Positions 2,755-52,067 of a stretch of DNA of 56,045 nt are shown in pieces. Source of the stretch: a bacterium. Its GTDB lineage: Bacteria > Patescibacteriota > Doudnabacteria > UBA920. The stretch's first letter is position 1. Every line of letters starts with the position of its first letter. Where the stretch lies: NCBI GenBank assembly GCA_021791515.1, contig JAJYWK010000006.1, positions 1 to 56,045 on the forward strand, read 5' to 3'. Under the pieces are notes generated by a model. That model was not told the DNA's origin and did no database searches. It saw nothing but the letters and a program-made list of their open reading frames with translations. The position numbers and the translations under genes were made by a program.

Positions 2755-3486
2755 CTATATCGTGCTCCAAAAATAATTAAGCATAATATTCATTGTTTCA
2801 AAAATATCCGCACTTTCTATTACTAACCCTAGAGAGTCGTCGCCTTCTTGCGTAATAAAAGCTACTTTGCCGTTATATGCAAACATTTCATTTTTAAATG
2901 GAAAATTTTGTGCGGGTATTAGTTTGGTCTGGCGGAGCGCAAATTTATCTTTTGATTTCAAATCCTGGTAAAAAGGAATATCAGGAGCAATTACTCTAAC
3001 GTGGTTGCCTCTTTTTATTCTTCTGTCCACATATTCTCCGCCCCAGTAGCCCATTATTTTTTCGTCCGGCAATTTTGTGGATAGCACTTCTATATAATCG
3101 GCGCGTTTGGATAGCATATCTTCATAGATTTCTTTTATGCCCTCAATGCCTTTGTATATTCTGACTGACGGCTTCTTCCCGGCGTGGCTTTGAATGGACA
3201 ACAATTGCCCCATAATATTATGTAAAATATTTTCTTTTTGTCTTATCAGCGGGAAAATATTCTGTGGGTCTTCCGCAATATAGATTTTACGTTTGCCTTT
3301 TAAAATGGTTTTTATTAGCCCTTTTTCTTTTAGGCCGTCTATAAGTTCATAAACCGTAGCCCTTTTTAAGTGGGAACCGTTAACCAGCTCCTGCATGGTC
3401 GCGGGGCCGGTTTGGAGCCCGGCCAAATATAAAGCTGACTCTTTTTCACTTAATCCGATTTTTTGAAGGTTTTGTTCTAAATTCAT
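2755..3486 (-). CDS. TrmB-like HTH transcriptional regulator (paralog 1 of 5)
   Basis: The N-terminal winged HTH LGLSEKESALYLAGLQTGPATMQELV...RATVYELIDGLKEKGLI is shared with ORFs 5938-6672, 8276-9040, 31833-32627 and 38447-39190. Confidence 0.7.
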   Translation of the reverse strand: MNLEQNLQKIGLSEKESALYLAGLQTGPATMQELVNGSHLKRATVYELIDGLKEKGLIKTILKGKRKIYIAEDPQNIFPLIRQKENILHNIMGQLLSIQSHAGKKPSVRIYKGIEGIKEIYEDMLSKRADYIEVLSTKLPDEKIMGYWGGEYVDRRIKRGNHVRVIAPDIPFYQDLKSKDKFALRQTKLIPAQNFPFKNEMFAYNGKVAFITQEGDDSLGLVIESADIFETMNIMLNYFWSTI

Positions 3487-3974: not shown

Positions 3975-5903
3975 TTATAAAGTCTTTTGTTTAATCTTCT
4001 CTTCAAAACTCTCCAGTACGTCGCCGACCAAAATTTTCACGTTGGTTTTTAATTTAATGCCGAATTCTTCGCCGGTATTTACGTTCTTGCTGGCCACTTT
4101 GCTTTGTTGAAGTTCCAAAATATCCCCGCGGCCGAGTTCCGCTCCAGCGCGCCAAACCGAAATGTGGCTGTTTCTTTTTAGCTCCCCTTCTTCCACTTTA
4201 CCGCCCACTATCATTTCGCCTTTTTCCGTACGGAAAATGGCCAGGACTTTGGCTTTGCCCAACGAAATTTTTTCCGTTTCCGGAGTGAACATCTTAATTA
4301 CCGCGGAAGTAATGTCTTCCAGTAATTCATAAATAACATCGTAAGAATCAATTACCACTTTTTTTTGCTTGGCCAAATTAACGGCTTTGGGATTAATTTT
4401 TGCCCTAAAGCCAATAACCGAAGCTTTGGAGTTTGAAGCCATTAAAACATCGGATTCGTTTATTTCTCCCACGCCTTCGCTTAAAATGTTAATTCTAACT
4501 TCATCATTTTTTAATTTAGCAATGCTCTGCTTAATGGCTTCCAAAGAGCCGGCCACGTCTGCCTTTAAAATTAAATTCAATGTTTTATTTTCCAAGTCGC
4601 CCATAATTGCCTGTTTGCTCACCAAACGATGGCTTTGATTTTTACGCTGGCTTACAAGAGCAATGTCTTTGGCCATATCTAAAGTTTCTACCACCTGCAA
4701 AATGTCGCCGGCTTGGGGCACTTCGGAAAATCCCGATATCTGCGCCGGCGTGGAAGGCATAGCTTCTTTTAATTTGCGCCCGGTTTCATCTTCCAAAGAG
4801 CGGATGCGGCCAAAAGCCGCGCCAGCCGCAATAATATCGCCCGGCCTAAGCGTGCCGTTTTGTATTACCACTGTGGCCGTGGCGCCTTTGCCCTGGGTCA
4901 TTTTGCTTTCAATAATTGTGCCAATTGTCTGGCCTTGGGGGTTGGCGCGCAGGTTTTCCATTTCCGCGGTAAGCAGAATCATTTCTAACAAATTATCTAT
5001 TCCTTTGTTTTGTTTGGCGGAAATTTCGCAGGCAATGATTTTACCTCCCCACTCTTCAGTTAAAACTCCTTGGCCGGCCAGTTCCTGTTTAACTTTAATT
5101 ACGTTGGCCTCGGGCTTATCTACCTTGTTTATGGCCACAATCATTGGCGTGCTGGTGAATTTGGCACGGTTGATTACTTCCAGGGTCTGCGGCCTTACGC
5201 CGTCGTCCGCGGCCACCACCAAAACAATAATGTCCGTAACATTGGCTCCCCGCGCGCGCATTTCACTAAAGGCTTCGTGGCCAGGGGTGTCCAAAAATGT
5301 GATGGTTTTGCCGTTCTTTTTTACCGTGTAAGCGCCAATATGCTGGGTGATGCCACCGCTTTCGCCTTCGGCAACTTTGGTTTTGCGAATGGTATCAAGC
5401 AGAGTGGTTTTACCATGGTCAACATGGCCCATAATTGTCACAATCGGCGGACGGAGTTTTAAGTTTTCCTCTTTTTCCGCGCTCAAAACTTCCTGCAGGA
5501 AACCCAGGCCAAATTCTTTTTGACTCTGGTCGGCTTCGGTGGAAACATCAAAGTTTAAATCCTGCGCTACAATACTAGCAGTGTCAAAATCCACCTCTTC
5601 GTTAATAGTGGCCATTACGCCGTTTTGTATTAAGCTCTTAATGACATCGGTTACAGGCAGGCCGAGCAGGGCCGCAAAGTCGCGCACTTTTATAAACGAG
5701 GGCAGTTTAACTTTCTTTTTTTCTACCGGTTCGGCCGGCTTGGCCGCAACGGGTTTTACAGTCAATGCTTCGGTAATTTTTTTGGCCAGGAAGTTGTCGA
5801 TTTTATTCGCCCTGGGCGAAATAAAAAAACCTTTCTCGCGGGCGCGGGAGCGGAGTTCCTGGACGGACATATTCAGTTCGGACGAGAGGGAAGAAAGATT
5901 CAT
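3975..5903 (-). CDS. infB: translation initiation factor IF-2
   Basis: 642-aa ORF with GTPase motifs [17 protein letters not shown] and NKVD, plus the IF-2 C-terminal domains. Confidence 0.95.
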
Positions 5904-5937: not shown

Positions 5938-6672
5938 TCAAGCCTTTTCCCAAATCAAATTAAACAAAGAACGCATGGTAGTAGTGATTTCTTTAGAACG
6001 AATAATTACTCCAATGGGTTCGCTGTCTTTGCGATAGAGCGCGAACGATAAATTGTCGCCGTAAATGTAACAATCTAAGGGTATAGGATATAAATTTTCG
6101 TCCAGTAATTTTACTTCGCGTAAGGCATAAGTGTCAGTGGTAAGTTTTATTCGGTTAGACCTGGCTTGCCCGGAAACTAAAATTTTTATAGGGATTTTTC
6201 TTTTGATTCTTTGCGGAATGTAGTAGTTGGAGGAGTGAAATTCAATTTCCGGATGGATTTGTTTTAAACTGACAAACTCCAAAATTGGTTTTTGTTCCTT
6301 TAGGTTGTCGAAATAAAGTTTTTTTATGCCTTCCATGCCTTCATAAAAAATAATTTTTGGTTTATTAGAAGCGGTGGTTAATAGTAAGCGCAATTCCGGA
6401 ATTATGGTTTCCAATTGGTCTATCTCTGATTGCTTTTTATTTAAAAGATTTTCCGGATCTTCGGCAATCAAATATCTTCTTTTGCCCAATATAGTCTCGG
6501 CAATTAAGCCTTGCTTAAGTAGGTTTGGTAAAAGTTTGTACAGCACAGAGCGGTTAACTTTAGCTTTTTCCGCCAAGTGTTTGGGTAAAGATTTTCCTAA
6601 TTCTAAACCAGCTAAATAAATAGCCGACTCCGCTTGGGAAAGCCCTAAATTTTCCAGTAATTCTTGAATCAT
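5938..6672 (-). CDS. TrmB-like HTH transcriptional regulator (paralog 2)
   Basis: LGLSQAESAIYLAGLELGKSL...RSVLYKLLPNLLKQGLI. Length and C-terminal pattern match the other paralogs. Confidence 0.7.
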   Translation of the reverse strand: MIQELLENLGLSQAESAIYLAGLELGKSLPKHLAEKAKVNRSVLYKLLPNLLKQGLIAETILGKRRYLIAEDPENLLNKKQSEIDQLETIIPELRLLLTTASNKPKIIFYEGMEGIKKLYFDNLKEQKPILEFVSLKQIHPEIEFHSSNYYIPQRIKRKIPIKILVSGQARSNRIKLTTDTYALREVKLLDENLYPIPLDCYIYGDNLSFALYRKDSEPIGVIIRSKEITTTMRSLFNLIWEKA

Positions 6673-8275: not shown

Positions 8276-9040
8276 CTACTTTGTCAAGGTTGCTGACAAG
8301 CCCCAAATGGTGTCAAAAATTTTTCTTTCGCTTTCGGCAATGTCCGCGCTTTCAATTATCACCGTAACTAATTCCTTTTTGGAACTGTAAATAGCCACTT
8401 TATTGCCGTAAATCAGTTTGGAAGTATTGTAGATAAAATTTTCCGGCAAATATTTTACTTCGCGCAGGAGTTCGGAGTGGTTGGCCTTTAAAAAAGATTC
8501 GGGCATTTGGGATTTAAAATACAAGGCCTGAAAGCGAATATGGTTTTTTAAGCGAGTGGGGATGTAAAAATTTAAGTCCCATTCTTCGCTAACTACATTA
8601 TGGATTTCGCTGATGGAACCAATGTGTCTGACGGTCGCATTTGGCGTTTTAAGCGAATCTTCCGATGCGACAAAGTATCCTTCCTTGCCTTCGTAGTAAG
8701 TGATTTGCGGGCGACTGTCTTTTTTTTGCGTAAGGCTGTTTAACTGCGGTAAAATGGATTTTAAATCTTCCAGTTCTTTTTGGGTCTTGTTAATTAAAAT
8801 ATCGGGCGAAGTGGCCACGAACTTATGCCGGCCGCGCATTTTAAAACTGCCCATAAGACCCTTTTTTTCTAAAGCCTGGAAAATTACGTAAGCCGAAGTC
8901 CTTTTTATTTGGGCCTCGCGGGAAAGCTCACTCATGCCCGCTTCCCCGAGTTTTAAGCTGGCCAAATACAAAGCTGCTTCCGCGTCTTCCAGGCCATAAG
9001 TTTTTAAGGTTTGTTTAATGTCTTGCATAGCGCGAAGCAC
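8276..9040 (-). CDS. TrmB-like HTH transcriptional regulator (paralog 3)
   Basis: YGLEDAEAALYLASLKLGEAGMSELS...RTSAYVIFQALEKKGLM, with the same architecture as the other paralogs. Confidence 0.7.
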   Translation of the reverse strand: MLRAMQDIKQTLKTYGLEDAEAALYLASLKLGEAGMSELSREAQIKRTSAYVIFQALEKKGLMGSFKMRGRHKFVATSPDILINKTQKELEDLKSILPQLNSLTQKKDSRPQITYYEGKEGYFVASEDSLKTPNATVRHIGSISEIHNVVSEEWDLNFYIPTRLKNHIRFQALYFKSQMPESFLKANHSELLREVKYLPENFIYNTSKLIYGNKVAIYSSKKELVTVIIESADIAESERKIFDTIWGLSATLTK

Positions 9041-9302
9041 ATTATTATTCTCCCCAAGACTTGGGGAGATGTCCGCCGAAGGCGGACAGAGAGGTTGAAT
9101 AAGAGATTAATATTTTCTGACGTTTTTTACGTCAACATTCTAGCATAGCTAATAAAATATAGCAAATGTTGATGATTCTAATATAGAATTACGCCATAAT
9201 TATTGACGTTATGTCAATTTTAATATATTGTTATTGGTTAAAACAAAAACACCCGGCGGGGCATGAATACGCAAAGATCGTTTTTACCCTGAAGGAGGGG
9301 TT

Positions 9303-12502: not shown

Positions 12503-12539
12503 TATATGATATACTAAGTGTATATTAAATATCATATAT
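12503..12539 (+). promoter_or_regulatory. 11-bp perfect inverted repeat overlapping the murA-fusion promoter and start codon (operator candidate)
   Basis: atatatgatat (12503-12513) and atatcatatat (12529-12539) are exact reverse complements. A third related copy, catatgtgatat, lies at 12471-12482. tatact and tatatt -10-like hexamers lie between them. Confidence 0.5.
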
Positions 12540-14061
12540 GAAATCAACTTTGGATGATAAACTAAAAATCGGGCAGTTTATTGCGGAAGTTAGGGAACTT
12601 AAGGGTTTTACTCAAAGCCAGTTTGCCAAAGCACTTAAAACTTCGCAGTCGGCCGTAGCCAGAATGGAAAGCGGCCAACAGAATTTAACCACCGAAATGC
12701 TGGCAAAAATCAGCGGCGCGCTAAACCAGGAAATTATTACTTTGGCCGACCGGTCGGTGAATTTTAAAATAGAAGGCGGGCGCAAGCTTTCAGGCAAGGT
12801 TTCTGTTAATTCTTCCAAGAACGCCGCTGTGGCTTTGTTATGCGCAAGCCTTTTAAATAAAGGCAAAACTGTATTGAAAAATGTGCCTAAAATAGAGGAG
12901 GTTAATCGGGTAATTGAAGTTTTGACAAGCCTGGGCGTGCAGGTAAAATGGCAGGAAAATAATGTGGAAATTCAACCGCCCAAAACAATCAGTATTAAAA
13001 ATATCAATAAAGAAGCGGCGGTTAAAACCAGAAGCGTGCTAATGCTTTTGGGGCCTTTGGTGCATTTGTTGCCTCAATTTAATTTGCCGCTGGCCGGGGG
13101 CTGTAAATTAGGCGCCCGCACGGTTCGCCCGCATTTGTTCGCTTTGGAAGGCTTGGGGGTAAAGATAAAAACCCATCATGACCATTATGAAGTTGCCGCT
13201 CATAAGTTAAATACATCCGAAGTTGTGCTGTATGAAACCGGAGACACGGTCACGGAAAATGTTTTAATGGCCGCGGCCAGAATTAACGGCCCAACAGCTA
13301 TTAAATTGGCTTCGGCCAACTATATGGTGCAGGATTTGTGCCATTTTCTGCAGGTGCTTGGCATTAAAATAGAAGGCATTGGCACGCCCACGCTAAAAGT
13401 TTACGGCAGAAGCCAAATTAACAAGCGCGCGGTCTATAATTTAAGCGAAGATCCAATAGAGGCCATGCTGTTTTTGTCTTTGGCCGCCACGACGAATTCT
13501 TCCATTATAATTGAGCGCTGTCCCATAGACTTTTTGCAGTTGGAATTGTTAAAGCTGGAAAAAATGGGGCTAAAATTTAAAATTTTAAAGCGGTACAAAA
13601 GTGAAAATGGTTTTACTGCTTTGGCAGATATTCAAACTTTTGAGTCCCGCCTTACAGCCTTGGAAGAAAAACTTCATCCCCTGCCTTCGGCATTTGGCAT
13701 AAATATAGATAATTTGCCGTTTTTTGTGCCCGTGGCCACTCAGGCCAAAGGCGTGAGTCTGGTTCAGGACTGGGTATATGAAAATCGCGCGGTTTATTAT
13801 ATGGAATTAAATAAACTGCGGGCGAATATTATTTTGGCTGATCCGCACCGGGTGTACGTGGAAGGAAAAAGTGATTTGCGCGGAGCGGAAATTATTTGTC
13901 CCCCTGCTTTGCGGCCAGCCGCGATAATTCTGATTGCCATGCTGGCGGCCAAAGGCACTTCTATCCTCCGCAATGTTTATTCCATTAATCGCGGGTACGA
14001 AAATTTGGTAAATAGGCTTAATCAATTAGGGGCTAAAATAGAAATTAACCATGGACTTTAG
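12538..14061 (+). CDS. murA: XRE-type HTH domain fused to UDP-N-acetylglucosamine 1-carboxyvinyltransferase
   Basis: Residues 1-70 are an XRE HTH (GFTQSQFAKALKTSQSAVARMESGQQNLT). The remainder is MurA-like: SSKNAAVALLCASLL, the active-site region LAGGCKLGARTVRPH, and the C-terminal RGYENLVNRLNQLGAKI. Confidence 0.8.
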   Translation: MKSTLDDKLKIGQFIAEVRELKGFTQSQFAKALKTSQSAVARMESGQQNLTTEMLAKISGALNQEIITLADRSVNFKIEGGRKLSGKVSVNSSKNAAVALLCASLLNKGKTVLKNVPKIEEVNRVIEVLTSLGVQVKWQENNVEIQPPKTISIKNINKEAAVKTRSVLMLLGPLVHLLPQFNLPLAGGCKLGARTVRPHLFALEGLGVKIKTHHDHYEVAAHKLNTSEVVLYETGDTVTENVLMAAARINGPTAIKLASANYMVQDLCHFLQVLGIKIEGIGTPTLKVYGRSQINKRAVYNLSEDPIEAMLFLSLAATTNSSIIIERCPIDFLQLELLKLEKMGLKFKILKRYKSENGFTALADIQTFESRLTALEEKLHPLPSAFGINIDNLPFFVPVATQAKGVSLVQDWVYENRAVYYMELNKLRANIILADPHRVYVEGKSDLRGAEIICPPALRPAAIILIAMLAAKGTSILRNVYSINRGYENLVNRLNQLGAKIEINHGL

Positions 14062-15095: not shown

Positions 15096-15318
15096 TGGTG
15101 GACCTGGGGGGAATCGAACCCCCGCCTCGGCAATAGCGCCCCAGCAGCAAATTCGCTATGCGAGTTGCTACGGGGTAAAAATGCCGCAGTAATATTTACC
15201 CCGTTACTTTTGGTGGACTCACCGGGAATCGGACCCGGGCCTCGGCAATGCGAATGCCGCGTAATACCACTTTACTATGAGCCCAACAAAAGTTACGGGG
15301 CCACTTTACTACAGGCCC
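15096..15318 (-). tRNA. interrupted tRNA-Ala gene (outer gene; inserts at 15139-15179 and 15195-15300)
   Basis: The acceptor halves gggcctg (15312-15318) and caggtcc+a+cca (15096-15106) include a G3:U70 pair. Removing the two CCCC...GGGGTAAA-type inserts gives D arm gtaa-agtggta-ttac, anticodon stem cggca/tgccg, loop ttCGCtat (8 nt), and T arm ggggg-ttcgatt-ccccc. Confidence 0.6.
15211..15284 (-). tRNA. tRNA-Ala(CGC), intact, nested inside the D-loop insert of the outer tRNA-Ala
   Basis: gggctca-ta-gtaa-agtggta-ttac-g-cggca-ttCGCat-tgccg-aggc-ccggg-tccgatt-cccgg-tgagtcc-a-cca, with G3:U70 present. Confidence 0.85.
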
Positions 15319-17458: not shown

Positions 17459-17682
17459 GCCCTCGCCCCGGTAGCAATCCGCCTTCGGCGGACGTTACGG
17501 GGTAAATAGCTCAACTTGCCCCGTCACATATGTTGCTTTCGTAGCTCAATGGATAGAGCAAATCCGTCCTAAGGATGAGATGTAGGTTCGATTCCTACCG
17601 AGAGCACCATATGTGACGGGGTGGATTAGAGCAGGTCCGTCCTAAGGACAAGATGGGGGTCCGATTCCCTCCGAGGGCACCA
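17459..17682 (+). tRNA. interrupted tRNA-Arg(CCU) gene (outer gene; inserts at 17466-17506 and 17515-17621)
   Basis: gccctcg[ins]ta-gctc-aa[ins]tggatta-gagc-a-ggtcc-gtCCTaa-ggaca-agat-ggggg-tccgatt-ccctc-cgagggc-a-cca. This is a full cloverleaf after removal of the two inserts. Confidence 0.65.
17535..17609 (+). tRNA. tRNA-Arg(CCU), intact, nested inside the D-loop insert of the outer tRNA-Arg
   Basis: gctttcg-ta-gctc-aatggata-gagc-a-aatcc-gtCCTaa-ggatg-agat-gtagg-ttcgatt-cctac-cgagagc-a-cca. Confidence 0.85.
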
Positions 17683-18290: not shown

Positions 18291-18354
18291 CAAAAAAGAT
18301 CTTCTGTTTGAAGGTCTTTTTTGTCAGGAAGAGTTATATTTGCCTCAGAAATAC

Positions 18355-18389
18355 AAAAACAGCCGCTCTTTAACAGAGCGGCTGTTTTT
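18355..18389. terminator. bidirectional intrinsic terminator
   Basis: aaaaa-cagccgctct-ttaac-agagcggctg-ttttt. Confidence 0.7.
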
Positions 18390-18720
18390 GGTCGGGATGC
18401 CCCAGTAGCATAACCTTCGGTTAGCTACGGGGTAAACAGGGAATTGAACCCTGTCTTCATCCGCCTTAGGCGGACTTCGGCGGACAGGCGCACCTTTACC
18501 CCGCACCAATTTTTTACAAATGTTTGCTTTTGGTCGGGATGCAGGGAATCGAACCCTGTCTCCACGCACCCGAAGCGTGTGTACTACCGGTATACTACAT
18601 CCCGGTCAAAAGAAAACAGTTATAATTTTTTAAGATAATAATTGGTGCGGGGCGTGGCGCGCGTACTACCGGTATATTTACCCCGTAGTCAGCTTGCTGT
18701 ACCACTGGGGCTACATCCCG
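18389..18720 (-). tRNA. interrupted tRNA-Pro(CGG) gene (outer gene; four inserts: 18400-18436, 18458-18486, 18495-18652, 18677-18710)
   Basis: After removal of the inserts the minus strand reads cgggatg-ta-gtat-accggta-gtac-g-cgcgc-caCGGgt-gcgcc-aaga-caggg-ttcaatt-ccctg-catcccg-a-cca. That is 74 nt, the same length and acceptor/D arm as the nested gene. Confidence 0.6.
18531..18604 (-). tRNA. tRNA-Pro(CGG), intact, nested inside the anticodon-loop insert of the outer tRNA-Pro
   Basis: cgggatg-ta-gtat-accggta-gtac-a-cacgc-ttCGGgt-gcgtg-gaga-caggg-ttcgatt-ccctg-catcccg-a-cca. Confidence 0.85.
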
Positions 18721-18921
18721 TCGTCGCAGCTTGCTTCGAGCTTTCGGCTTTTACTAAAAGTAAAAGCCTTTCGCTCTGCGCAGCTACTCCTTTGTCCCAA
18801 AAATTCGTGCTCGCCGTCCAATGGGCGTCTGCGCACCAAATCTTTGGGAACCCTAGTCTAACTGAAAAATCCTATATATTATATCCTTTTAAAATCCTTT
18901 TATCAATGGTAAAATTAGCGC

Positions 18922-19719
18922 ATGGAAAAGCAGATTGTAATCAACGATAACTTAATTTCCTACAGTCAAACCGGCGAAGGGGAGCGGGCAGTGATTTTTT
19001 TGCACGGCTGGCGGAGTAATAAAGAAGTTTGGAACCAGGTAATACAGAGAATTAGAGAATTAGAGAATGAGAGAATTAGGATTTATTCCATCGATCTTCC
19101 CGGATTTGGTGGTTCATCGGCGCCTAAAACAGCTTGGTGTGTGGGGGATTACGCGGAAATTGTAAAAGGCTATATAGAAAAGTTGGAATTGAAAAATGTT
19201 ATAATCGTGGGTCATTCTTTTGGGGGAAGGATCGGCATCAAGTTAGCCGCGAACCCTTACCCGGCCTCCGGCCACCCTCTCCCAGAGGGAGAGGGAAAAT
19301 TGAAGGGGCTGATTTTGGTGGATGCGGCTGGGTTTGCCATGAATGCAAATAAAAAAACCATTATATCGGCGGCGGCAAAATTGACTAAGCCATTTTTTAA
19401 GCCAAAATTTATGCAGGGTTTGCGTAAGAAAATTTATCAAAAAATCGGCGCGGAAGACTATTTGGCCACTCCGGAATTGCAACAAACTTATGTAAAAGTT
19501 ATAAGTGAAGATTTGACTGAAGATTTAAAAAAAATAACTTTGCCAACTTTAATTATCACGGGTGAAAATGACAAAGATACGCCGATAGAGTTTGGTCGTA
19601 AAATGAATTCCTTAATTCCGAATTCCGAATTCCAAATTCTTAAAAATGCCGGGCATTATAGCTTTATTGATCAGCCGGAGGAGTTTGTAAATAATATTTT
19701 AGAATTTATGTCATCCTGA
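18922..19719 (+). CDS. alpha/beta-fold hydrolase
   Basis: HGWRSN..., nucleophile elbow VGHSFGG, C-terminal NAGHYSFIDQPEEF. It contains a hairpin-encoded insert at 19275-19295, and its stop codon lies inside the repeat at 19709-19769. Confidence 0.75.
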   Translation: MEKQIVINDNLISYSQTGEGERAVIFLHGWRSNKEVWNQVIQRIRELENERIRIYSIDLPGFGGSSAPKTAWCVGDYAEIVKGYIEKLELKNVIIVGHSFGGRIGIKLAANPYPASGHPLPEGEGKLKGLILVDAAGFAMNANKKTIISAAAKLTKPFFKPKFMQGLRKKIYQKIGAEDYLATPELQQTYVKVISEDLTEDLKKITLPTLIITGENDKDTPIEFGRKMNSLIPNSEFQILKNAGHYSFIDQPEEFVNNILEFMSS

Positions 19720-24443: not shown

Positions 24444-25001
24444 GTGATGAGATATAAACATCTGGCCAAAGAAAGAAATAAAAAAATGACGCTTGCCGCG
24501 GAGGTGCTTTTGTATTTTTTTGCTTTTGCGGATTTTTTACCCCGGCCGTTTGAGCACAAAACCCATTATACTAAGCGACTGCTTAGTGGAAAAACCGACG
24601 CATATTCTTACTATAGAATTATGAGAAGTTTGGAGGAGCGGGGGTGGCTGAAGGTTTATAAAGAAGGGAAAAGTAAACTTTATTCTCTAACTGAGCAGGG
24701 AAAATTGGAAGCTTTGTTTCTTAAAGCTCATTTGCCGGAAAAAGAAAATTGGGATGGCAAATGGCGGATGTTAATTTTTGATATTCCCGAGGACGCGCGT
24801 CCGGAAAGAAATAAATTGAGGAGATTATTAAAGACCAATGGTTTTAAACAAATTCAAAAAAGCGTATTTATAAACCCATATCCGTTGAATAGCGAAGCAA
24901 TCAGTTATCTTCAGCAAATCGGTTTGGATAAGTTTATTCGTATATTTAGAATTGATAAAGCAGACAACGAAAATTCTTTAAAAAAGTTATTCGATTTGTA
25001 A
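24444..25001 (+). CDS. PaaX-like / Cas2-fold domain regulator (wHTH plus WDGKWR...FDIPE module)
   Basis: YYRIMRSLEERGWL (wHTH-like), then NWDGKWRMLIFDIPEDARPERNKLRRLLKTNGFKQIQKSVFI, which is typical of PaaX C-terminal/Cas2-like ferredoxin-fold proteins. Confidence 0.5.
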   Translation: MMRYKHLAKERNKKMTLAAEVLLYFFAFADFLPRPFEHKTHYTKRLLSGKTDAYSYYRIMRSLEERGWLKVYKEGKSKLYSLTEQGKLEALFLKAHLPEKENWDGKWRMLIFDIPEDARPERNKLRRLLKTNGFKQIQKSVFINPYPLNSEAISYLQQIGLDKFIRIFRIDKADNENSLKKLFDL

Positions 25002-31698: not shown

Positions 31699-31832
31699 GG
31701 TTCCTCCTCTGGGACAATACAGAATATCACCAGCCGCATCGTTTATAAATTAGTATTTATTTACATTTGGCTTATTTGACAGAAATTCTGTTAGTAGTAT
31801 AATTAATTGTCAATGACAAATTGACAAACTAT

Positions 31833-32627
31833 ATGCTACAAAGCGAAATAATATTAAAAAAGCTCGGGCTTTCTGAGCACGAAGCCAAAGTTTATCTCTT
31901 GGGCATTAAGTTGGGCCCGAGTCTTGCCAGTGAAATATCAAAACAGTCGGGTTTGGGCCGGACGCTGGTTTATCATCTGCTGGGACAGTTAAAAAGCAAA
32001 GGTTTGGTTAGCGAACAGGGTAGCGGCAACGGTAAAAAGTTTTTTATGGAACCGCCGGAGAGGCTGTTAAATATTGTGGAAAGAAAACAAAAAGAGTTGG
32101 AGGGTATGGCAGTTCAAGTTACGCAAATTACCAAAGAATTAAAGTCATCCGCTATCTTTTCCGGCATACCGCAAATCCGCGTTTATGAAGGCACGGAAGG
32201 CATAAAGAATTTTGCCCAGGACACCTTGGCTGTAAAAGGCACGCTGACTAAAGCCATCGTTCCCATCGATAATTTATTAAAGATGCTGGATAAGTTTTTT
32301 TTGCGCTATTGGTTTTTAGGGCGAAATAAGCAAAATATTATGGGCAAAACTTTGTTTACCGGCACTCCGCGCAAACCATTCTCTATTGATCAGATAAAAC
32401 AATTGCTTAACACCCCACACGCCAGCAGTTTTTTGCATCAATGGAAAAAAAGCCCAAGGGAATTTGTGTTCCAGAATACCGTAGTAATTTTTGGTAATAA
32501 AGTCGCGGTAGTTTCGTCTCCTGAAAAACCCTCGGTGTTTGTTATTGATTCCGGCGAGTTTGCCGCCACTATGAGTATTTTTTTTGATGATTTATGGAAA
32601 CGAAGCGCAGTTTTGAAACAGAAATAA
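31833..32627 (+). CDS. TrmB-like HTH transcriptional regulator (paralog 4)
   Basis: LGLSEHEAKVYLLGIKLGPSLASEIS...RTLVYHLLGQLKSKGLV. I moved the start to the ATG at 31833. The 8-bp inverted repeat ttgtcaat/attgacaa lies just upstream. Confidence 0.7.
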   Translation: MLQSEIILKKLGLSEHEAKVYLLGIKLGPSLASEISKQSGLGRTLVYHLLGQLKSKGLVSEQGSGNGKKFFMEPPERLLNIVERKQKELEGMAVQVTQITKELKSSAIFSGIPQIRVYEGTEGIKNFAQDTLAVKGTLTKAIVPIDNLLKMLDKFFLRYWFLGRNKQNIMGKTLFTGTPRKPFSIDQIKQLLNTPHASSFLHQWKKSPREFVFQNTVVIFGNKVAVVSSPEKPSVFVIDSGEFAATMSIFFDDLWKRSAVLKQK

Positions 32628-32765
32628 CGATTCTGGCAGGACACTAAAAAAAATGCTAAAATGGGGAGGCAAGGAAGATTGTCATCTTCAGAATAACCTC
32701 TCCCCGTTCCGCCCGCCTTAGGCGGGCGGAACTTCCCTCTCCATGAATTGGAGAGGGAGACTATA

Positions 32766-38446: not shown

Positions 38447-39190
38447 ATGAAAGAATTATCGGAAAGTTTGGAAAAGTTGGGTTGGCATAACAAAAAAGCC
38501 AAAGTTTATTTGGCGCTTTTGCAATTGGGTGAAGGTAGTGTTATCGATATTGCTTATAAGTCTGGCCTAAAACGAACCACTGTTTACAACATTCTTCCTG
38601 AAATGGTTCGCGAAGGAATTGTGACGACAGGCATTAAACATCAAAAGAAGTATTATTATGTAGAGAATCCGAAAAATCTCAAGCAGGATTTTCAGGATAA
38701 AATAAACTATATTGAGAAAATACTGCCAGAGCTTTCCGCTATCCATAACATTATTCCCTATAAGCCGAAAATTTCTTATTATGAGGGCGTGGGTGGAATG
38801 AAAGAGTTGTATTTAGATACGTTAGACAGCTTACATGGTGGCGATACCATTTTAAGTTATACGGGTTTTAGGGATTATTATCAGTTTATGCCAAGGGAAT
38901 ATATGGACTGGTATGTGCAGGAAAGAGTTAACCGTAAAATTAGAATAAAAATGATCGTTCCAGATTTTCCGACGACTAGGGAAATTTTACCACAAGCTCA
39001 AAGTACTTTGCGCGAAATTAAAGTTATTCCGGGCGACACTTGGCAGTTTTCCGCAGATACGGAAATTTATGCTAATAAGGTTGCGCTTATCTCCCACACG
39101 GAAAATTTTATTGGTGTAATCATTGAAAGTAAAGAAATTAACCAGATGCAGAGGATGGCTTTTGAAATTATGTGGAATGCGCTAAAATAA
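38447..39190 (+). CDS. TrmB-like HTH transcriptional regulator (paralog 5)
   Basis: LGWHNKKAKVYLALLQLGEGSVIDIA...RTTVYNILPEMVREGIV. The inverted repeat atatgtct-n8-agacatat overlaps the start region. Confidence 0.7.
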   Translation: MKELSESLEKLGWHNKKAKVYLALLQLGEGSVIDIAYKSGLKRTTVYNILPEMVREGIVTTGIKHQKKYYYVENPKNLKQDFQDKINYIEKILPELSAIHNIIPYKPKISYYEGVGGMKELYLDTLDSLHGGDTILSYTGFRDYYQFMPREYMDWYVQERVNRKIRIKMIVPDFPTTREILPQAQSTLREIKVIPGDTWQFSADTEIYANKVALISHTENFIGVIIESKEINQMQRMAFEIMWNALK

Positions 39191-51522: not shown

Positions 51523-51856
51523 TTTAGAATCTATTTTAAAAATAATTTGTAGGCGAAATTTGAGGATTTTGAGCAGATTGGATCTTAACAAATTTTGACG
51601 TTTAGCCAAAGCTAAGCGGAAGAATTTTTCAGACCAAGATGCCAAAATACCGCAAATTGCAGCCCGAAGGATTTTTAAAATAGGTTCTTAGGCGCAATCT
51701 AATACCCCCGTCTTACTTGAATAGTAGGGCGGGGCTTGTTATTTGGTTTGAAAAATGCTAAAATTTTTGAGCCGAGCAACCAGCTCGAGTGGTGCAATTG
51801 GCCTCAGTTGAATCATTGCTTCGCAATATTCAACGGGGCAAGCGGTCTTGGCATCT

Positions 51857-51943
51857 GCCTTGGTGGCGGAATTGGTATACGCACTAGGTTTAGGACCTAG
51901 CGAGGGTAACCTCTTGAGAGTTCGAGTCTCTCCCAAGGCACCA
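51857..51943 (+). tRNA. tRNA-Leu(UAG), type II
   Basis: gccttgg-tg-gcg-gaattggtata-cgc-a-ctagg-ttTAGga-cctag-(variable arm)-gagag-ttcgagt-ctctc-ccaaggc-a-cca. It is flanked by the 10-bp inverted repeat acggggcaag / cttgccccgt. Confidence 0.85.
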
Positions 51944-52067
51944 GGCAATGGTTTACGTATTTGGTTCAACCTTGCCCCGTAGGGACGCCTGGCGTCTCCT
52001 TCGGGGTCCCATCTCGAGCACCATAAAAAGAGAAAGATTTTTAATCGCTCATCAGAGGTAAAATTAT

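What the first reader, a model, noticed from the sequence alone, without database searches (positions are those of the whole stretch)
18389..18720. tRNA-Pro(CGG) nested in an outer tRNA-Pro gene that carries four inserts
This locus is on the minus strand. The outer acceptor halves are at 18714-18720 and 18393-18399, with a-cca at 18389-18392. There are four inserts. (1) 18677-18710 is ccccagtggtac...ctacgggg+taaa in sense orientation, splitting the D-stem after G10. (2) 18495-18652 is ccccgcaccaa...ttggtgcgggg+taaa in the anticodon loop, and it carries the intact tRNA-Pro(CGG) at 18531-18604. (3) 18458-18486 is a tccgcc-type double hairpin at the junction of the anticodon stem and the variable region. 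(4) 18400-18436 is tttacccc...ctactgggg in antisense orientation, between the T-stem and the 3' acceptor strand. Removal at exactly these shared ends gives a 74-nt cloverleaf: cgggatg-ta-gtat-accggta-gtac-g-cgcgc-caCGGgt-gcgcc-aaga-caggg-ttcaatt-ccctg-catcccg-a-cca. This restores the CGG anticodon in a 7-nt loop. A caveat is that positions 32-33 are ca rather than the nearly universal U33. Inserts 1 and 4 are also mutually complementary, so together they could extend the acceptor stem instead of folding separately.
Basis: partly seen in the sequence, partly recalled or inferred. Interest (0 to 1): 0.9.

Follow-up and report, generated by a model that had tools for sequence, protein, structure and literature searches.

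The report
Broken tRNA gene holding its replacement
A working proline tRNA gene sits inside a recently broken older copy of the same gene, apparently carried there by a small hairpin-ended mobile element; the pattern recurs in this group of very small bacteria and shows how tRNA genes can be broken and replaced in place.

Summary
The sequence is as described. On the minus strand an intact tRNA-Pro(CGG) (18531-18604) lies inside a second tRNA-Pro gene (18389-18720) that four inserts cut into five pieces. Deleting the inserts, with insert 3 shifted one base, gives a 74-nt tRNA-Pro(CGG). It is 72/74 identical to the working tRNA-Pro of related genomes and differs only at U32-U33 (now CA). I read the outer gene as a recently disrupted relic, not a gene awaiting splicing. 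Inserts 1, 2 and 4 belong to a palindromic CCCC...GGGG+TAAA family. Its other window copies all sit in two more nested loci (tRNA-Ala CGC, tRNA-Arg CCT; probably also tRNA-Leu TAG), and similar elements lie between genes in related Patescibacteria. Orthologous tRNA-Pro genes are uninterrupted. Of 183 tRNA loci from related genomes, 25 carry collinear remnants, and every one inspected has an intact cognate tRNA inside or beside it. Shells range from complete to fragments, and some inserts encode GIY-YIG nucleases. Two restored Ala shells would read a serine codon. The likely history: a mobile cassette carrying a tRNA replaced the resident gene from within, and small hairpin elements then colonised the relic. 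RNA-level excision is not excluded (about 6%). I found no published description.

The parts
18878..18906 (-). Promoter-like site (TTGATA-17-TATAAT) for the whole composite transcript
   Evidence: 11 of 12 consensus matches. No promoter-like site was found inside insert 2.
18721..18860 (-). Conserved structured leader RNA that ends exactly at the first base of the outer tRNA-Pro
   Evidence: 36 pairs, 20 of them with compensatory changes; covariance model R1 finds it next to tRNA-Pro(CGG) or tRNA-Ser(CGA) in L004, L008, L086, L088, L094, L047 and L023. No Rfam family.
18711..18720 (-). Outer tRNA-Pro piece 1 (CGGGATGTAG: 5' acceptor strand through G10)
18677..18710 (-). Insert 1: small hairpin element CCCCAGTGG...CTACGGGG+TAAA, sense orientation
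   Evidence: family; hairpin -14.9 kcal/mol, z -3.3
18653..18676 (-). Outer piece 2 (D arm, 5' anticodon stem, loop through the second anticodon base). Carries C32A33 where orthologues have U32U33.
18495..18652 (-). Insert 2: palindrome-armed element carrying the intact tRNA. Left arm CCCCGCACCAA 18642-18652; right arm TTGGTGCGGGG 18499-18509; tail TAAA 18495-18498.
   Evidence: 15-bp stem
18531..18604 (-). Inner intact tRNA-Pro(CGG), the presumed working gene
   Evidence: 56.4 bits. Identical to the tRNA-Pro of L084/L085.
18488..18494 (-). Outer piece 3 (GGTGCGC: third anticodon base, rest of loop, 3' anticodon stem), with the corrected boundary
18459..18487 (-). Insert 3 (corrected by one base): TCCGCC-type hairpin, antisense to the tRNA
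   Evidence: boundary; z -2.8; 66 CCGCC-N3-6-GGCGG hairpins across the window and related loci, 16 within 300 nt of a tRNA against 6% expected
18437..18458 (-). Outer piece 4 (G43, variable region, T arm)
18400..18436 (+). Insert 4: small hairpin element CCCCAGTAGC...GCTACGGGG+TAAA, antisense to the tRNA
   Evidence: z -4.1 to -4.7
18389..18399 (-). Outer piece 5 (3' acceptor strand, discriminator A, CCA)
18354..18390 (-). Intrinsic terminator-like hairpin directly after the outer CCA
   Evidence: 16 pairs, T run
15096..15318 (-). Second nested locus. Outer tRNA-Ala(CGC) holds a tRNA-bearing element (15195-15300, inner tRNA 15211-15284) in its D loop and a small hairpin (15139-15179, + strand) after U33.
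   Evidence: The outer equals the clade's canonical tRNA-Ala plus two 1-nt insertions.
17459..17682 (+). Third nested locus. Outer tRNA-Arg(CCT) holds a small hairpin (17466-17506) after the acceptor strand and a tRNA-bearing element (17515-17621, inner tRNA 17535-17609) in the D loop.
   Evidence: The restored outer is called tRNA-Arg(CCT).
51784..52023 (+). Probable fourth nested locus. A degraded outer tRNA-Leu shell (acceptor GCTCGAG / CTCGAGC-A-CCA) surrounds tRNA-Leu(TAG) 51857-51943, with GGGG+CAAG hairpins.
   Evidence: Read by eye, so less certain.

Best explanation
The window comes from a Patescibacteria (CPR) chromosome near Candidatus Doudnabacteria.

The outer tRNA-Pro(CGG) is the former resident gene at this conserved position. 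It was split when a roughly 158-bp palindrome-armed element (CCCCGCACCAA...TTGGTGCGGGG+TAAA), carrying a complete tRNA-Pro(CGG) of a different allele, landed between the second and third anticodon bases. The carried tRNA took over the function. It is transcribed from the old gene's promoter and ends at the old gene's terminator. It is presumably cut out by the ordinary tRNA-end processing enzymes, with the GC-clamped arm helix keeping it folded apart from the near-identical outer halves.

The disabled outer gene then picked up three more small hairpin elements. Two are of the same CCCC...GGGG+TAAA family in opposite orientations, and one is a TCCGCC hairpin. Each inserted precisely and without a target duplication.

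Shown here: the anatomy, the repeat families, the empty orthologous sites, the recurrence of nesting, and the decay series.

Inferred: the order of events, the DNA-level mobility, the processing route, and why the cargo always matches the gene it sits in. For that last point there are two candidate reasons. An insertion into any other single-copy tRNA gene may be lethal. Or the nested allele may spread by recombination through the outer-gene homology, a form of homing.
For: - **Organism and synteny.** Housekeeping genes surround the locus (IF-2, FtsK, FtsH, Ddl, Alr, RecA). The best relatives are Doudnabacteria/Patescibacteria MAGs, and the order Ala(CGC)-Arg(CCT)-Ala(GGC)-Pro(CGG)-Mur ligase-Ser(CGA) is conserved.
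- **Empty sites.** tRNA-Pro(CGG) is uninterrupted in more than 20 related loci. The restored outer is 72/74 identical to the L003/L009 gene. The inner is identical to the L084/L085 gene. All seven inner/outer differences are allelic differences also seen between relatives.
- **Repeat family.** There are five CCCC...ACGGGG+TAAA copies in the window, all inside interrupted tRNA shells. They share a fold: a 4-bp clamp, a 1-nt bulge, a stem and a 4-nt tail. Related elements (CCCCGT...ACGGGG+TGAA/TTGA) lie between genes in L008, L011 and L021. One sits at the 5' end of a hydrolase gene in L011, where it supplies a new in-frame start codon.
- **Recurrence.** Ala, Arg and probably Leu are nested in the window. 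The same architecture occurs in L004/L082, L011, L019, L014 and L062. Of 183 distinct tRNA loci, 25 have collinear remnants of at least 10 nt. Fourteen have remnants of at least 15 nt, against none in the wrong-order or opposite-strand controls.
- **An intact cognate tRNA always accompanies a shell.** No sole-copy interrupted tRNA was found.
- **Decay series and lesions**.
- **Serial replacement.** L019 has three layers of tRNA-Arg. L003 carries the 'inner-type' tRNA-Ala with no shell. tRNA-Pro, tRNA-Ser and tRNA-Ala(CGC) flip orientation between syntenic relatives.
- **Evidence bearing on spread between lineages.** Between L004 and L011 the element arms and spacer are about 85% identical, while the flanking intergenic DNA is about 32% identical. 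L011's outer gene is a chimera of two resident alleles.
- **One transcription unit**.
Against: - No transposase, integrase or homing endonuclease lies in the insert or anywhere in the 56-kb window, so mobility is inferred from distribution only.
- The outer gene is almost undamaged (2 substitutions, all stems perfect). It must therefore be very young, or something is conserving it.
- Seven of eight insertion points in the window fall in loops or at helix junctions. The same site is used by different elements in different lineages: after U33 in tRNA-Ala, between G35 and G36 in tRNA-Pro, and after CAACTTG in the tRNA-Arg D loop. Archaeal tRNA introns show this kind of positional preference too.
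- The arms differ between copies yet stay complementary, which could reflect selection on an RNA structure.
- Bases next to the tRNA-bearing insert have changed in ways that lengthen its helix.
- I could not see the rest of the genome, so a further tRNA-Pro(CGG) copy or a processing enzyme cannot be ruled out.
Confidence: 0.72

Rival explanations
1. RNA-level excision. The four inserts are true intervening sequences, removed from the precursor by an unknown bacterial nuclease and ligase. The locus then yields two tRNAs, or a tRNA plus a tRNA-like RNA.
For: Exact-end removal restores a 74-nt cloverleaf that ARAGORN calls tRNA-Pro(CGG). The restored window tRNA-Arg outer is also intact. Insert positions favour loops and helix junctions. 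All stems of the outer gene are intact. The inserts are stable hairpins with uniform ends. The whole locus is one transcription unit.
Against: U33 is lost. Elements occur in both orientations within one gene. The ends form a continuous CCCC/GGGG clamp with a tail on one side only, not a bulge-helix-bulge. Family members sit at intergenic sites and at a gene's start without being removed from the reading frame. An intact cognate tRNA is always present, and no sole-copy interrupted tRNA was found. Precise excision in L004/L011 would make an alanine-accepting tRNA that reads a serine codon. L014's outer gene lacks positions 27-65.
Confidence: 0.06
2. Arrival by homing rather than transposition. 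An already nested allele was copied into this lineage by recombination through the outer-gene and flanking homology, possibly after a nuclease cut the naive gene. The elements need never have moved within this genome.
For: L011's outer tRNA-Ala is chimeric: donor-like near the insert and resident-like further away. L004 and L011 share the same CGCAU->CGAGU change beside the insert. Element arms are about 85% identical while the flanks are unalignable. Inserts in L038, L047, L066 and L068 encode GIY-YIG nucleases (PF01541, E about 1e-13 to 1e-15). Fourteen of 18 GIY-YIG ORFs lie within about 115 nt of a tRNA. RecA and a ComM-like protein are encoded in the window.
Against: The window has no GIY-YIG or other nuclease. 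The GIY-YIG gene next to tRNA-Ala(CGC) in relatives is present whether or not that tRNA is nested. No closer relative of the window was found to serve as donor or recipient; the best is 58-61% protein identity. Homing does not explain how the first nested allele arose.
Confidence: 0.3
3. An exapted scaffold. The outer halves and their hairpins are kept by selection because they help express the inner tRNA, for example as a paired leader and trailer or an entry site for a double-strand RNase. On this view they are not a decaying relic.
For: The inner tRNA depends on the outer promoter and terminator. Outer loop bases have changed so as to lengthen the arm helix. The minimum-energy fold keeps the inner cloverleaf at the tip of a long helix. 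Outer stems are intact.
Against: Most relatives express the same tRNA without any shell. Shells elsewhere are truncated to short fragments. The small hairpins differ in number, position and family between loci.
Confidence: 0.12
4. An assembly artefact that merges two strain variants of the tRNA-Pro locus.
For: The window is probably metagenome-derived. L009 has a run of N exactly inside its nested tRNA-Pro locus.
Against: The same architecture appears at three to four loci in the window. It also appears in separately deposited contigs, including identical nested Ala loci in L004 (a GenBank MAG) and L082 (a JGI metagenome contig). The inserts have family-specific ends that no assembler would create.
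Confidence: 0.02

Closest known systems
Integrative elements that insert into tRNA genes and carry a replacement segment (integrase-encoding islands and prophages; archaeal pNOB8-type elements, e.g. the Caldiarchaeum tRNA-Thr locus, PMC3293823)
   Same: A mobile insert lands inside a tRNA gene. The working tRNA is supplied wholly or partly by the element. A displaced fragment of the resident gene is left beside it. The 5'-fragment and 3'-fragment remnants seen in L066, L068, L079 and L119 look just like this.
   Different: Here the element is only about 100-160 bp and encodes no recombinase. It has palindromic arms and carries the complete tRNA. It sits in the D loop or anticodon loop rather than at the usual 3' sites, so the resident gene surrounds it on both sides.
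Archaeal disrupted tRNA genes (multiple non-canonical bulge-helix-bulge introns, split and tri-split tRNAs; PMC3978253, PMC4390854)
   Same: Several inserts at non-canonical positions; removing them restores a cloverleaf; inserts behave as mobile units shared between tRNA genes.
   Different: The host is bacterial. There is no bulge-helix-bulge motif at the junctions. An intact copy is always present. The restored genes carry lesions. No splicing endonuclease was seen.
Small palindromic non-autonomous elements (REP/REPIN, GTAG-tagged REPs PMC3733652, Rickettsia palindromic elements, Correia elements, cyanobacterial small dispersed repeats, yeast mitochondrial GC clusters PMC4478555)
   Same: Short GC-clamped hairpins with conserved ends and variable centres, in multiple copies, in either orientation, nesting into each other and into genes. 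A GTAG/CTAC motif lies next to the clamp.
   Different: In the window every copy is in a tRNA relic. There is a one-sided 4-nt tail and no target duplication. Some members carry a whole tRNA gene as cargo, which I have not seen described for these families (from my own knowledge and the searches).
Free-standing GIY-YIG homing endonucleases beside tRNA genes (phage T4 SegB, PMC2330249) and intronless homing
   Same: A nuclease gene is embedded among tRNA genes. Spread is by cleavage and gene conversion with co-conversion of flanks. Related CPR loci have a GIY-YIG ORF between the outer fragment and the intact tRNA.
   Different: The window locus has no ORF. The CPR proteins consist of the catalytic domain alone (about 80-90 aa). 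Their cleavage targets are unknown.
Insertion sequences in CPR rRNA genes (PMC11270868) and RNase III-excised intervening sequences of 23S rRNA
   Same: The same bacterial group. Stable-RNA genes there are peppered with inserts, many short, without ORFs and not intron-like, located at the tops or bases of stem-loops.
   Different: Those inserts lie in the only functional rRNA copy and so must be removed or tolerated. Here a spare intact tRNA is always present. The paper's text does not mention tRNA genes.

Membership tests
Archaeal/eukaryal-type tRNA intron (splicing-endonuclease substrate) | Bulge-helix-bulge (or relaxed helix-bulge-helix) motif spanning both exon-intron junctions | tested here: not met
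   Each insert folds as a continuous CCCC/GGGG-clamped hairpin with a single 4-nt tail on one side. I could not draw two 3-nt bulges separated by 4 bp at any junction (sequence inspection).
Archaeal/eukaryal-type tRNA intron (splicing-endonuclease substrate) | Exons restore a tRNA with the invariant residues | tested here: inconclusive
   72/74 identity to the functional orthologue and called tRNA-Pro(CGG), but U33 is replaced by A. The window's Ala outer has an 8-nt anticodon loop. The L004/L011 Ala outers read CGA.
Archaeal/eukaryal-type tRNA intron (splicing-endonuclease substrate) | The interrupted gene is needed, with no uninterrupted copy for that anticodon | tested here: not met
   An intact tRNA-Pro(CGG) is nested inside. 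The same holds for every shell inspected.
Archaeal/eukaryal-type tRNA intron (splicing-endonuclease substrate) | The host encodes a splicing endonuclease and an RNA ligase | not testable with these tools
   Only 56 kb of the genome is available. None of the 40 window ORFs scanned is such an enzyme.
Bacterial group I intron in a tRNA anticodon loop | Conserved catalytic core (Rfam group I intron model) | tested here: not met
   No Rfam hit other than tRNA at gathering threshold. No intron or ribozyme family at E up to 1 in 18300-18950.
Bacterial group I intron in a tRNA anticodon loop | U at the last exon position before the 5' splice site | tested here: not met
   All four inserts follow a G.
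Palindromic non-autonomous mobile element (MITE/REP-like) | Several copies in one genome with conserved termini | tested here: met
   Five copies with CCCC...ACGGGGTAAA ends in 56 kb, against about 0.3-0.9 expected.
Palindromic non-autonomous mobile element (MITE/REP-like) | Terminal inverted repeats / hairpin potential | tested here: met
Palindromic non-autonomous mobile element (MITE/REP-like) | Presence/absence at orthologous sites (empty sites) | tested here: met
   Uninterrupted tRNA-Pro, tRNA-Ala and tRNA-Arg orthologues match the restored outers.
Palindromic non-autonomous mobile element (MITE/REP-like) | Target-site duplication | tested here: not met
   None at any of the eight tRNA insertion sites. 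An apparent 4-nt repeat occurs only at L008 18773, L011 9056 and L021 2640.
Palindromic non-autonomous mobile element (MITE/REP-like) | A cognate transposase encoded elsewhere in the genome | not testable with these tools
   None among the 40 window ORFs scanned. The rest of the genome is unavailable.
tRNA-targeting integrative element | Encodes an integrase or recombinase | tested here: not met
   Insert 2 is 158 bp, of which 74 are the tRNA. None of the window ORFs scanned matched an integrase or recombinase family.
tRNA-targeting integrative element | The element supplies the sequence that keeps the tRNA functional, and the resident part is displaced | tested here: met
   The inner tRNA is intact and of a different allele from the outer.
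Homing-endonuclease cassette (GIY-YIG) | Endonuclease ORF within or beside the insert | tested here: not met
   No GIY-YIG ORF in the window. Present in the analogous inserts of L038, L047, L066 and L068.
Homing-endonuclease cassette (GIY-YIG) | Co-conversion of flanking markers | tested here: inconclusive
   The L011 outer tRNA-Ala is chimeric and shares insert-adjacent changes with L004. This is a single case, with no close relative of the window itself.

The most novel reading that the evidence does not exclude
The hairpin inserts are genuine RNA-level intervening sequences of a kind not known in bacteria. They would be recognised by their CCCC/GGGG clamp and 4-nt tail rather than by a bulge-helix-bulge. 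The outer gene would then still mature into a tRNA or tRNA-like RNA after up to four excisions and ligations. The nested intact tRNA would be released from the same precursor.
Probability: 0.06. Interest if true: 0.95.

Novelty: new variant of a known kind. Interest (0 to 1): 0.68.

Why it matters
If the reading is right, tRNA genes in these ultra-small bacteria are turned over in place by tiny cassettes that carry a complete spare tRNA into the gene they destroy. That is a compact, recombinase-less counterpart of the tRNA-targeting integrative elements.

It would give a bacterial, stepwise view of how tRNA genes become interrupted at several non-canonical positions: naive gene, complete nested shell, fragment, then nothing. 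This question has so far been argued mainly from archaeal split and multi-intron tRNAs.

There are practical consequences too. Such shells will confuse tRNA annotation and metagenome assembly; L009 breaks exactly there. The loci also offer natural substrates for studying how a tRNA is processed out of a precursor that contains a near-identical competitor. And the pattern flags in-place replacement and possible horizontal exchange of core translation genes in a group thought to have very static, reduced genomes.

Tried and rejected
- **Known RNA families.** Rfam at gathering threshold on the window and five loci, and at E up to 1 on 18300-18950, gave only tRNAs and weak chance hits. There was no group I/II intron or self-cleaving ribozyme.
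- **Bulge-helix-bulge.** The junctions do not fit (sequence inspection).
- **A promoter inside insert 2.** None predicted.
- **Nuclease or transposase in the window.** Pfam on 40 ORFs and a local GIY-YIG profile over all six frames found none. A third batch failed on bad coordinates.
- **Sole-copy interrupted tRNAs.** I scanned for T-arm plus acceptor shells. I also excised about 187,000 candidate hairpin variants and re-ran ARAGORN. Every apparent new tRNA I examined was a known one. This screen removes only one insert at a time, so multiply interrupted genes could be missed.
- **Phage vectors.** CCCCGTCAC-N(85-115)-GTGACGGGG in viral contigs gave 10 hits. None held a tRNA, and they read as chance matches.
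- **Closer relatives.** Genome and metagenome scans with the neighbouring Mur ligase reached only 58-61% identity, so strain-level presence/absence could not be tested.
- **A shared sequence among the 3'-side inserts** of L079, L119, L058 and L029. None, apart from L009 and L014 sharing 21 nt.
- **The idea that the structured leader guides a nuclease to tRNA genes.** Rejected as an explanation of nesting, because the leader occurs with un-nested tRNAs and is absent from the Ala, Arg and Leu nested loci.
- **Thermodynamics to settle inserts 1 and 4.** Uninformative, because they are inverse copies of one family.
- **Literature.** Eight full-text searches found nothing on nested or hairpin-interrupted tRNA genes in CPR bacteria.
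Full report
**What is in the sequence**

Read on the minus strand, 18720-18389 consists of five short pieces that together spell a tRNA-Pro gene, separated by four inserts. ARAGORN and Rfam both call an intact tRNA-Pro(CGG) at 18531-18604 inside the second insert.

Related genomes supply a sharper test. The tRNA-Pro(CGG) of L003/L009 is 71/74 identical to this reconstruction. Moving insert 3 by one base (18459-18487) restores G43, giving 72/74 and an ARAGORN call of tRNA-Pro(CGG). Only U32U33 -> CA remains.

It is not chance. The end motif is strongly over-represented, and every small insert is a stable hairpin with a 4-nt tail.

**Where the window comes from**

The window encodes IF-2, FtsK, FtsH, Ddl, alanine racemase, Mur ligases, RecA and similar proteins. 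The neighbouring Mur ligase finds its best relatives (58-61% identity) in Candidatus Doudnabacteria and other Patescibacteria MAGs. Those share the gene order tRNA-Ala(CGC), tRNA-Arg(CCT), tRNA-Ala(GGC), tRNA-Pro(CGG), Mur ligase, tRNA-Ser(CGA). This is a bacterial chromosome of the candidate phyla radiation.

**The locus is not unique**

The same architecture occurs at tRNA-Ala(CGC) (outer 15096-15318) and tRNA-Arg(CCT) (outer 17459-17682), and in degraded form at tRNA-Leu(TAG). That is three or four of the window's eight tRNAs.

In each case an intact tRNA lies between inverted arms that begin CCCCG and end CGGGG, followed by a 4-nt tail. This arm-flanked tRNA sits inside an outer gene of the same anticodon, and the outer gene also carries one or more small hairpins. 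The four small hairpins of the window share the ends CCCCRGYRG...YTACGGGG+TAAA and differ in the middle. All lie in outer shells.

Insert 3 belongs to a second family, the TCCGCC hairpins. These are scattered through related genomes and about four-fold enriched near tRNAs.

**What relatives show**

- tRNA-Pro(CGG) is uninterrupted in more than 20 syntenic loci. The four inserts are therefore lineage-specific, precise insertions without target duplication.
- The inner and outer tRNAs are two alleles that each serve as the sole gene in different relatives. The inner is identical to the L084/L085 gene. The outer is the L003/L009 type. The inner is thus not a local duplicate of the outer.
- The outer tRNA-Ala equals the sequence shared by seven relatives, plus two single-base insertions. 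The outer tRNA-Arg is close to the L010 gene.
- Nested tRNAs also occur in L004/L082 and L011 (Ala), L019 (Arg), L014 and probably L009 (Pro), and L062 (Ala-TGC).
- Of 183 distinct tRNA loci, 25 have a 5' piece upstream or a 3' piece downstream of at least 10 nt. Fourteen have one of at least 15 nt, against none in the wrong-order or opposite-strand controls.
- In L038, L047, L066 and L068 the insert between the outer fragment and the intact tRNA encodes an 80-90-residue GIY-YIG protein. Fourteen of 18 such ORFs lie within about 115 nt of a tRNA. None is in the window.

**Relic or gene awaiting splicing?**

Several results point to a relic:

1. Elements of the same kind lie between genes in L008, L011 and L021. 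One sits just after the start codon of a hydrolase gene in L011, where the reading frame survives only because the element supplies a new ATG. That is DNA-level behaviour.
2. Copies occur in both orientations within one gene.
3. Two screens found no interrupted tRNA without an intact cognate copy.
4. Shells form a series from complete to stumps. L014 keeps only positions 1-26 and 66-76 of its outer tRNA-Pro. L066, L068, L038, L030 and L084 keep only 5' fragments. L079 and L119 keep only 3' fragments.
5. Restored outers carry lesions. The L004/L011 outers would pair an alanine body (G3:U70) with anticodon CGA, which would be harmful if matured.
6. The junctions lack a bulge-helix-bulge, and no intron or ribozyme family matches.

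Against this, the Pro shell is almost undamaged, and insertion points favour loops and helix junctions. Different elements also reuse the same nucleotide position in different lineages: after U33 in tRNA-Ala, between G35 and G36 in tRNA-Pro, and after CAACTTG in tRNA-Arg. These facts argue for a site- or structure-specific insertion mechanism and keep an RNA-level process from being excluded.

**How it most likely works**

*Shown.* A strong promoter-like site (18906-18878) and a terminator (18390-18354) bracket the composite, with no promoter inside insert 2. The inner tRNA therefore appears to depend on the old gene's signals.

*Inferred.* The precursor folds with the inner cloverleaf at the tip of the arm helix. 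Ordinary end-processing then releases it. The GC clamp insulates it from the near-identical outer halves. Bases beside the insert have changed in ways that lengthen this helix (Pro UU->CA; Ala CGCAU->CGAGU in L004/L011).

*Inferred.* The cargo matches its host gene for one of two reasons. Insertions of a tRNA-seeking element into any other single-copy tRNA may be lethal. Or nested alleles may spread by recombination. The second idea has some support. The L004 and L011 elements are about 85% identical in non-tRNA parts while the flanks are unalignable (about 32%), and L011's outer gene is a chimera.

Serial replacement is supported by three observations: three layers of tRNA-Arg in L019, an 'inner-type' tRNA-Ala without a shell in L003, and orientation flips of tRNA-Pro, tRNA-Ser and tRNA-Ala(CGC) at fixed positions.

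**Inserts 1 and 4**

They pair in the minimum-energy fold, and their duplex is more stable than the two separate hairpins. But they are inverse copies of one family, and the same family occurs singly in the Ala and Arg shells. The self-hairpin is the conserved unit.

**Comparison with what is known**

The closest kinds are:
- tRNA-targeting integrative elements, which carry a replacement segment and leave a displaced fragment (for example the archaeal case in PMC3293823);
- small palindromic non-autonomous repeats (PMC3733652, PMC4478555);
- free-standing GIY-YIG homing endonucleases beside tRNA genes (PMC2330249);
- the many inserts in CPR rRNA genes (PMC11270868, whose text does not mention tRNA).

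The new features are a recombinase-less, roughly 100-160 bp palindrome-armed unit carrying a whole tRNA, its position inside the cognate gene's D or anticodon loop, and the secondary colonisation of the relic by hairpins. Eight full-text searches found no description of this.

**Verdict**

I rate it a new variant of a known kind, with interest 0.68. The most novel reading still open, bacterial multi-insert tRNA splicing, has a probability of about 0.06.

Noticed in passing
window 18721-18860 (minus); also L004 5001-5128, L008 8965-9090 and 14501-14641, L086 5900-6026 and 12288-12426, L088 5995-6139, L094 193-331: A conserved structured RNA of about 130-140 nt ends exactly at position +1 of tRNA-Pro(CGG) or tRNA-Ser(CGA) and begins shortly after a promoter-like TATAAT. 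It has 36 predicted pairs, 20 with compensatory changes. No Rfam family matches. Its function is unknown.
   Followed up: partly
L047 9027-9135, L023 1385-1496, L008 14743-14813: Weaker copies of the same structured RNA lie on the opposite strand, abutting the 3' end of the tRNA, so they would read into its antisense. They may be leftovers from an in-place replacement of the tRNA in the other orientation.
   Followed up: partly
L003-L011, L019 and window, syntenic tRNA block: tRNA-Pro(CGG), tRNA-Ser(CGA) and tRNA-Ala(CGC) switch strand between related genomes while keeping their place in the gene order. tRNA-Arg(CCT) and tRNA-Ala(GGC) never do.
   Followed up: no
L019 about 2300-2720: There are three layers of tRNA-Arg. 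An outermost 5' fragment of the L003 type has a hairpin in its D loop. Next comes a complete outer shell of the window's outer type with two inserts. Inside that is the intact inner tRNA. The D-loop insert sits at the same nucleotide as in the window but has no tRNA cargo.
   Followed up: partly
L011 9056-9159: A roughly 100-nt CCCCGTTAGA...TCTAACGGGG+TGAA element is inserted right after ATGAA of the alpha/beta-hydrolase gene and provides a new in-frame start (MAISNGVNKQVVIN...).
   Followed up: yes
window 9073-9085, 17479-17491, 18461-18473, 32713-32725; many loci (e.g. L005 10659-10686, L088 7878-7905): TCCGCC-NNN-GGCGGA hairpins occur often as perfect 30-nt double palindromes at sites far from tRNAs. 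There are 66 hits in about 2 Mb, with four-fold enrichment near tRNAs.
   Followed up: partly
L005 4562-4840, L006 2425-2718, L008 2583-2834, L011 5475-5777, L014 4821-5075, L088 1405-1803, L095 1184-1438: A small GIY-YIG gene lies beside tRNA-Ala(CGC) in at least seven related loci, whether or not that tRNA is nested. It is missing from the window.
   Followed up: partly
L079 3864-3938, 7737-7811, 8696-8783, 16264-16338; L119 921-993: Five tRNAs are each followed, after 75-170 nt of unrelated structured sequence, by a 12-19 nt copy of their own 3' end. In L119 the unit is repeated in tandem. These look like footprints of miniature 3'-end-targeting inserts.
   Followed up: partly
L009 about 5455-5554: A run of N lies exactly between the outer 5' half of tRNA-Pro (ending ...TTCG) and the inner tRNA. 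It is probably an assembly break caused by the 34-nt repeat.
   Followed up: no
window 2755-3486, 5938-6672, 8276-9040 (minus); 31821-32627, 38447-39190 (plus): Five paralogous proteins with a TrmB-type helix-turn-helix domain occur within 56 kb.
   Followed up: no
window 12538-14061: A helix-turn-helix (HTH_3) domain is fused to an EPSP-synthase/MurA-type enzyme domain.
   Followed up: no
window 24444-25001: A protein with a PaaX/Cas2-like central domain and a winged helix lies just upstream of tRNA-Ser(CGA).
   Followed up: no
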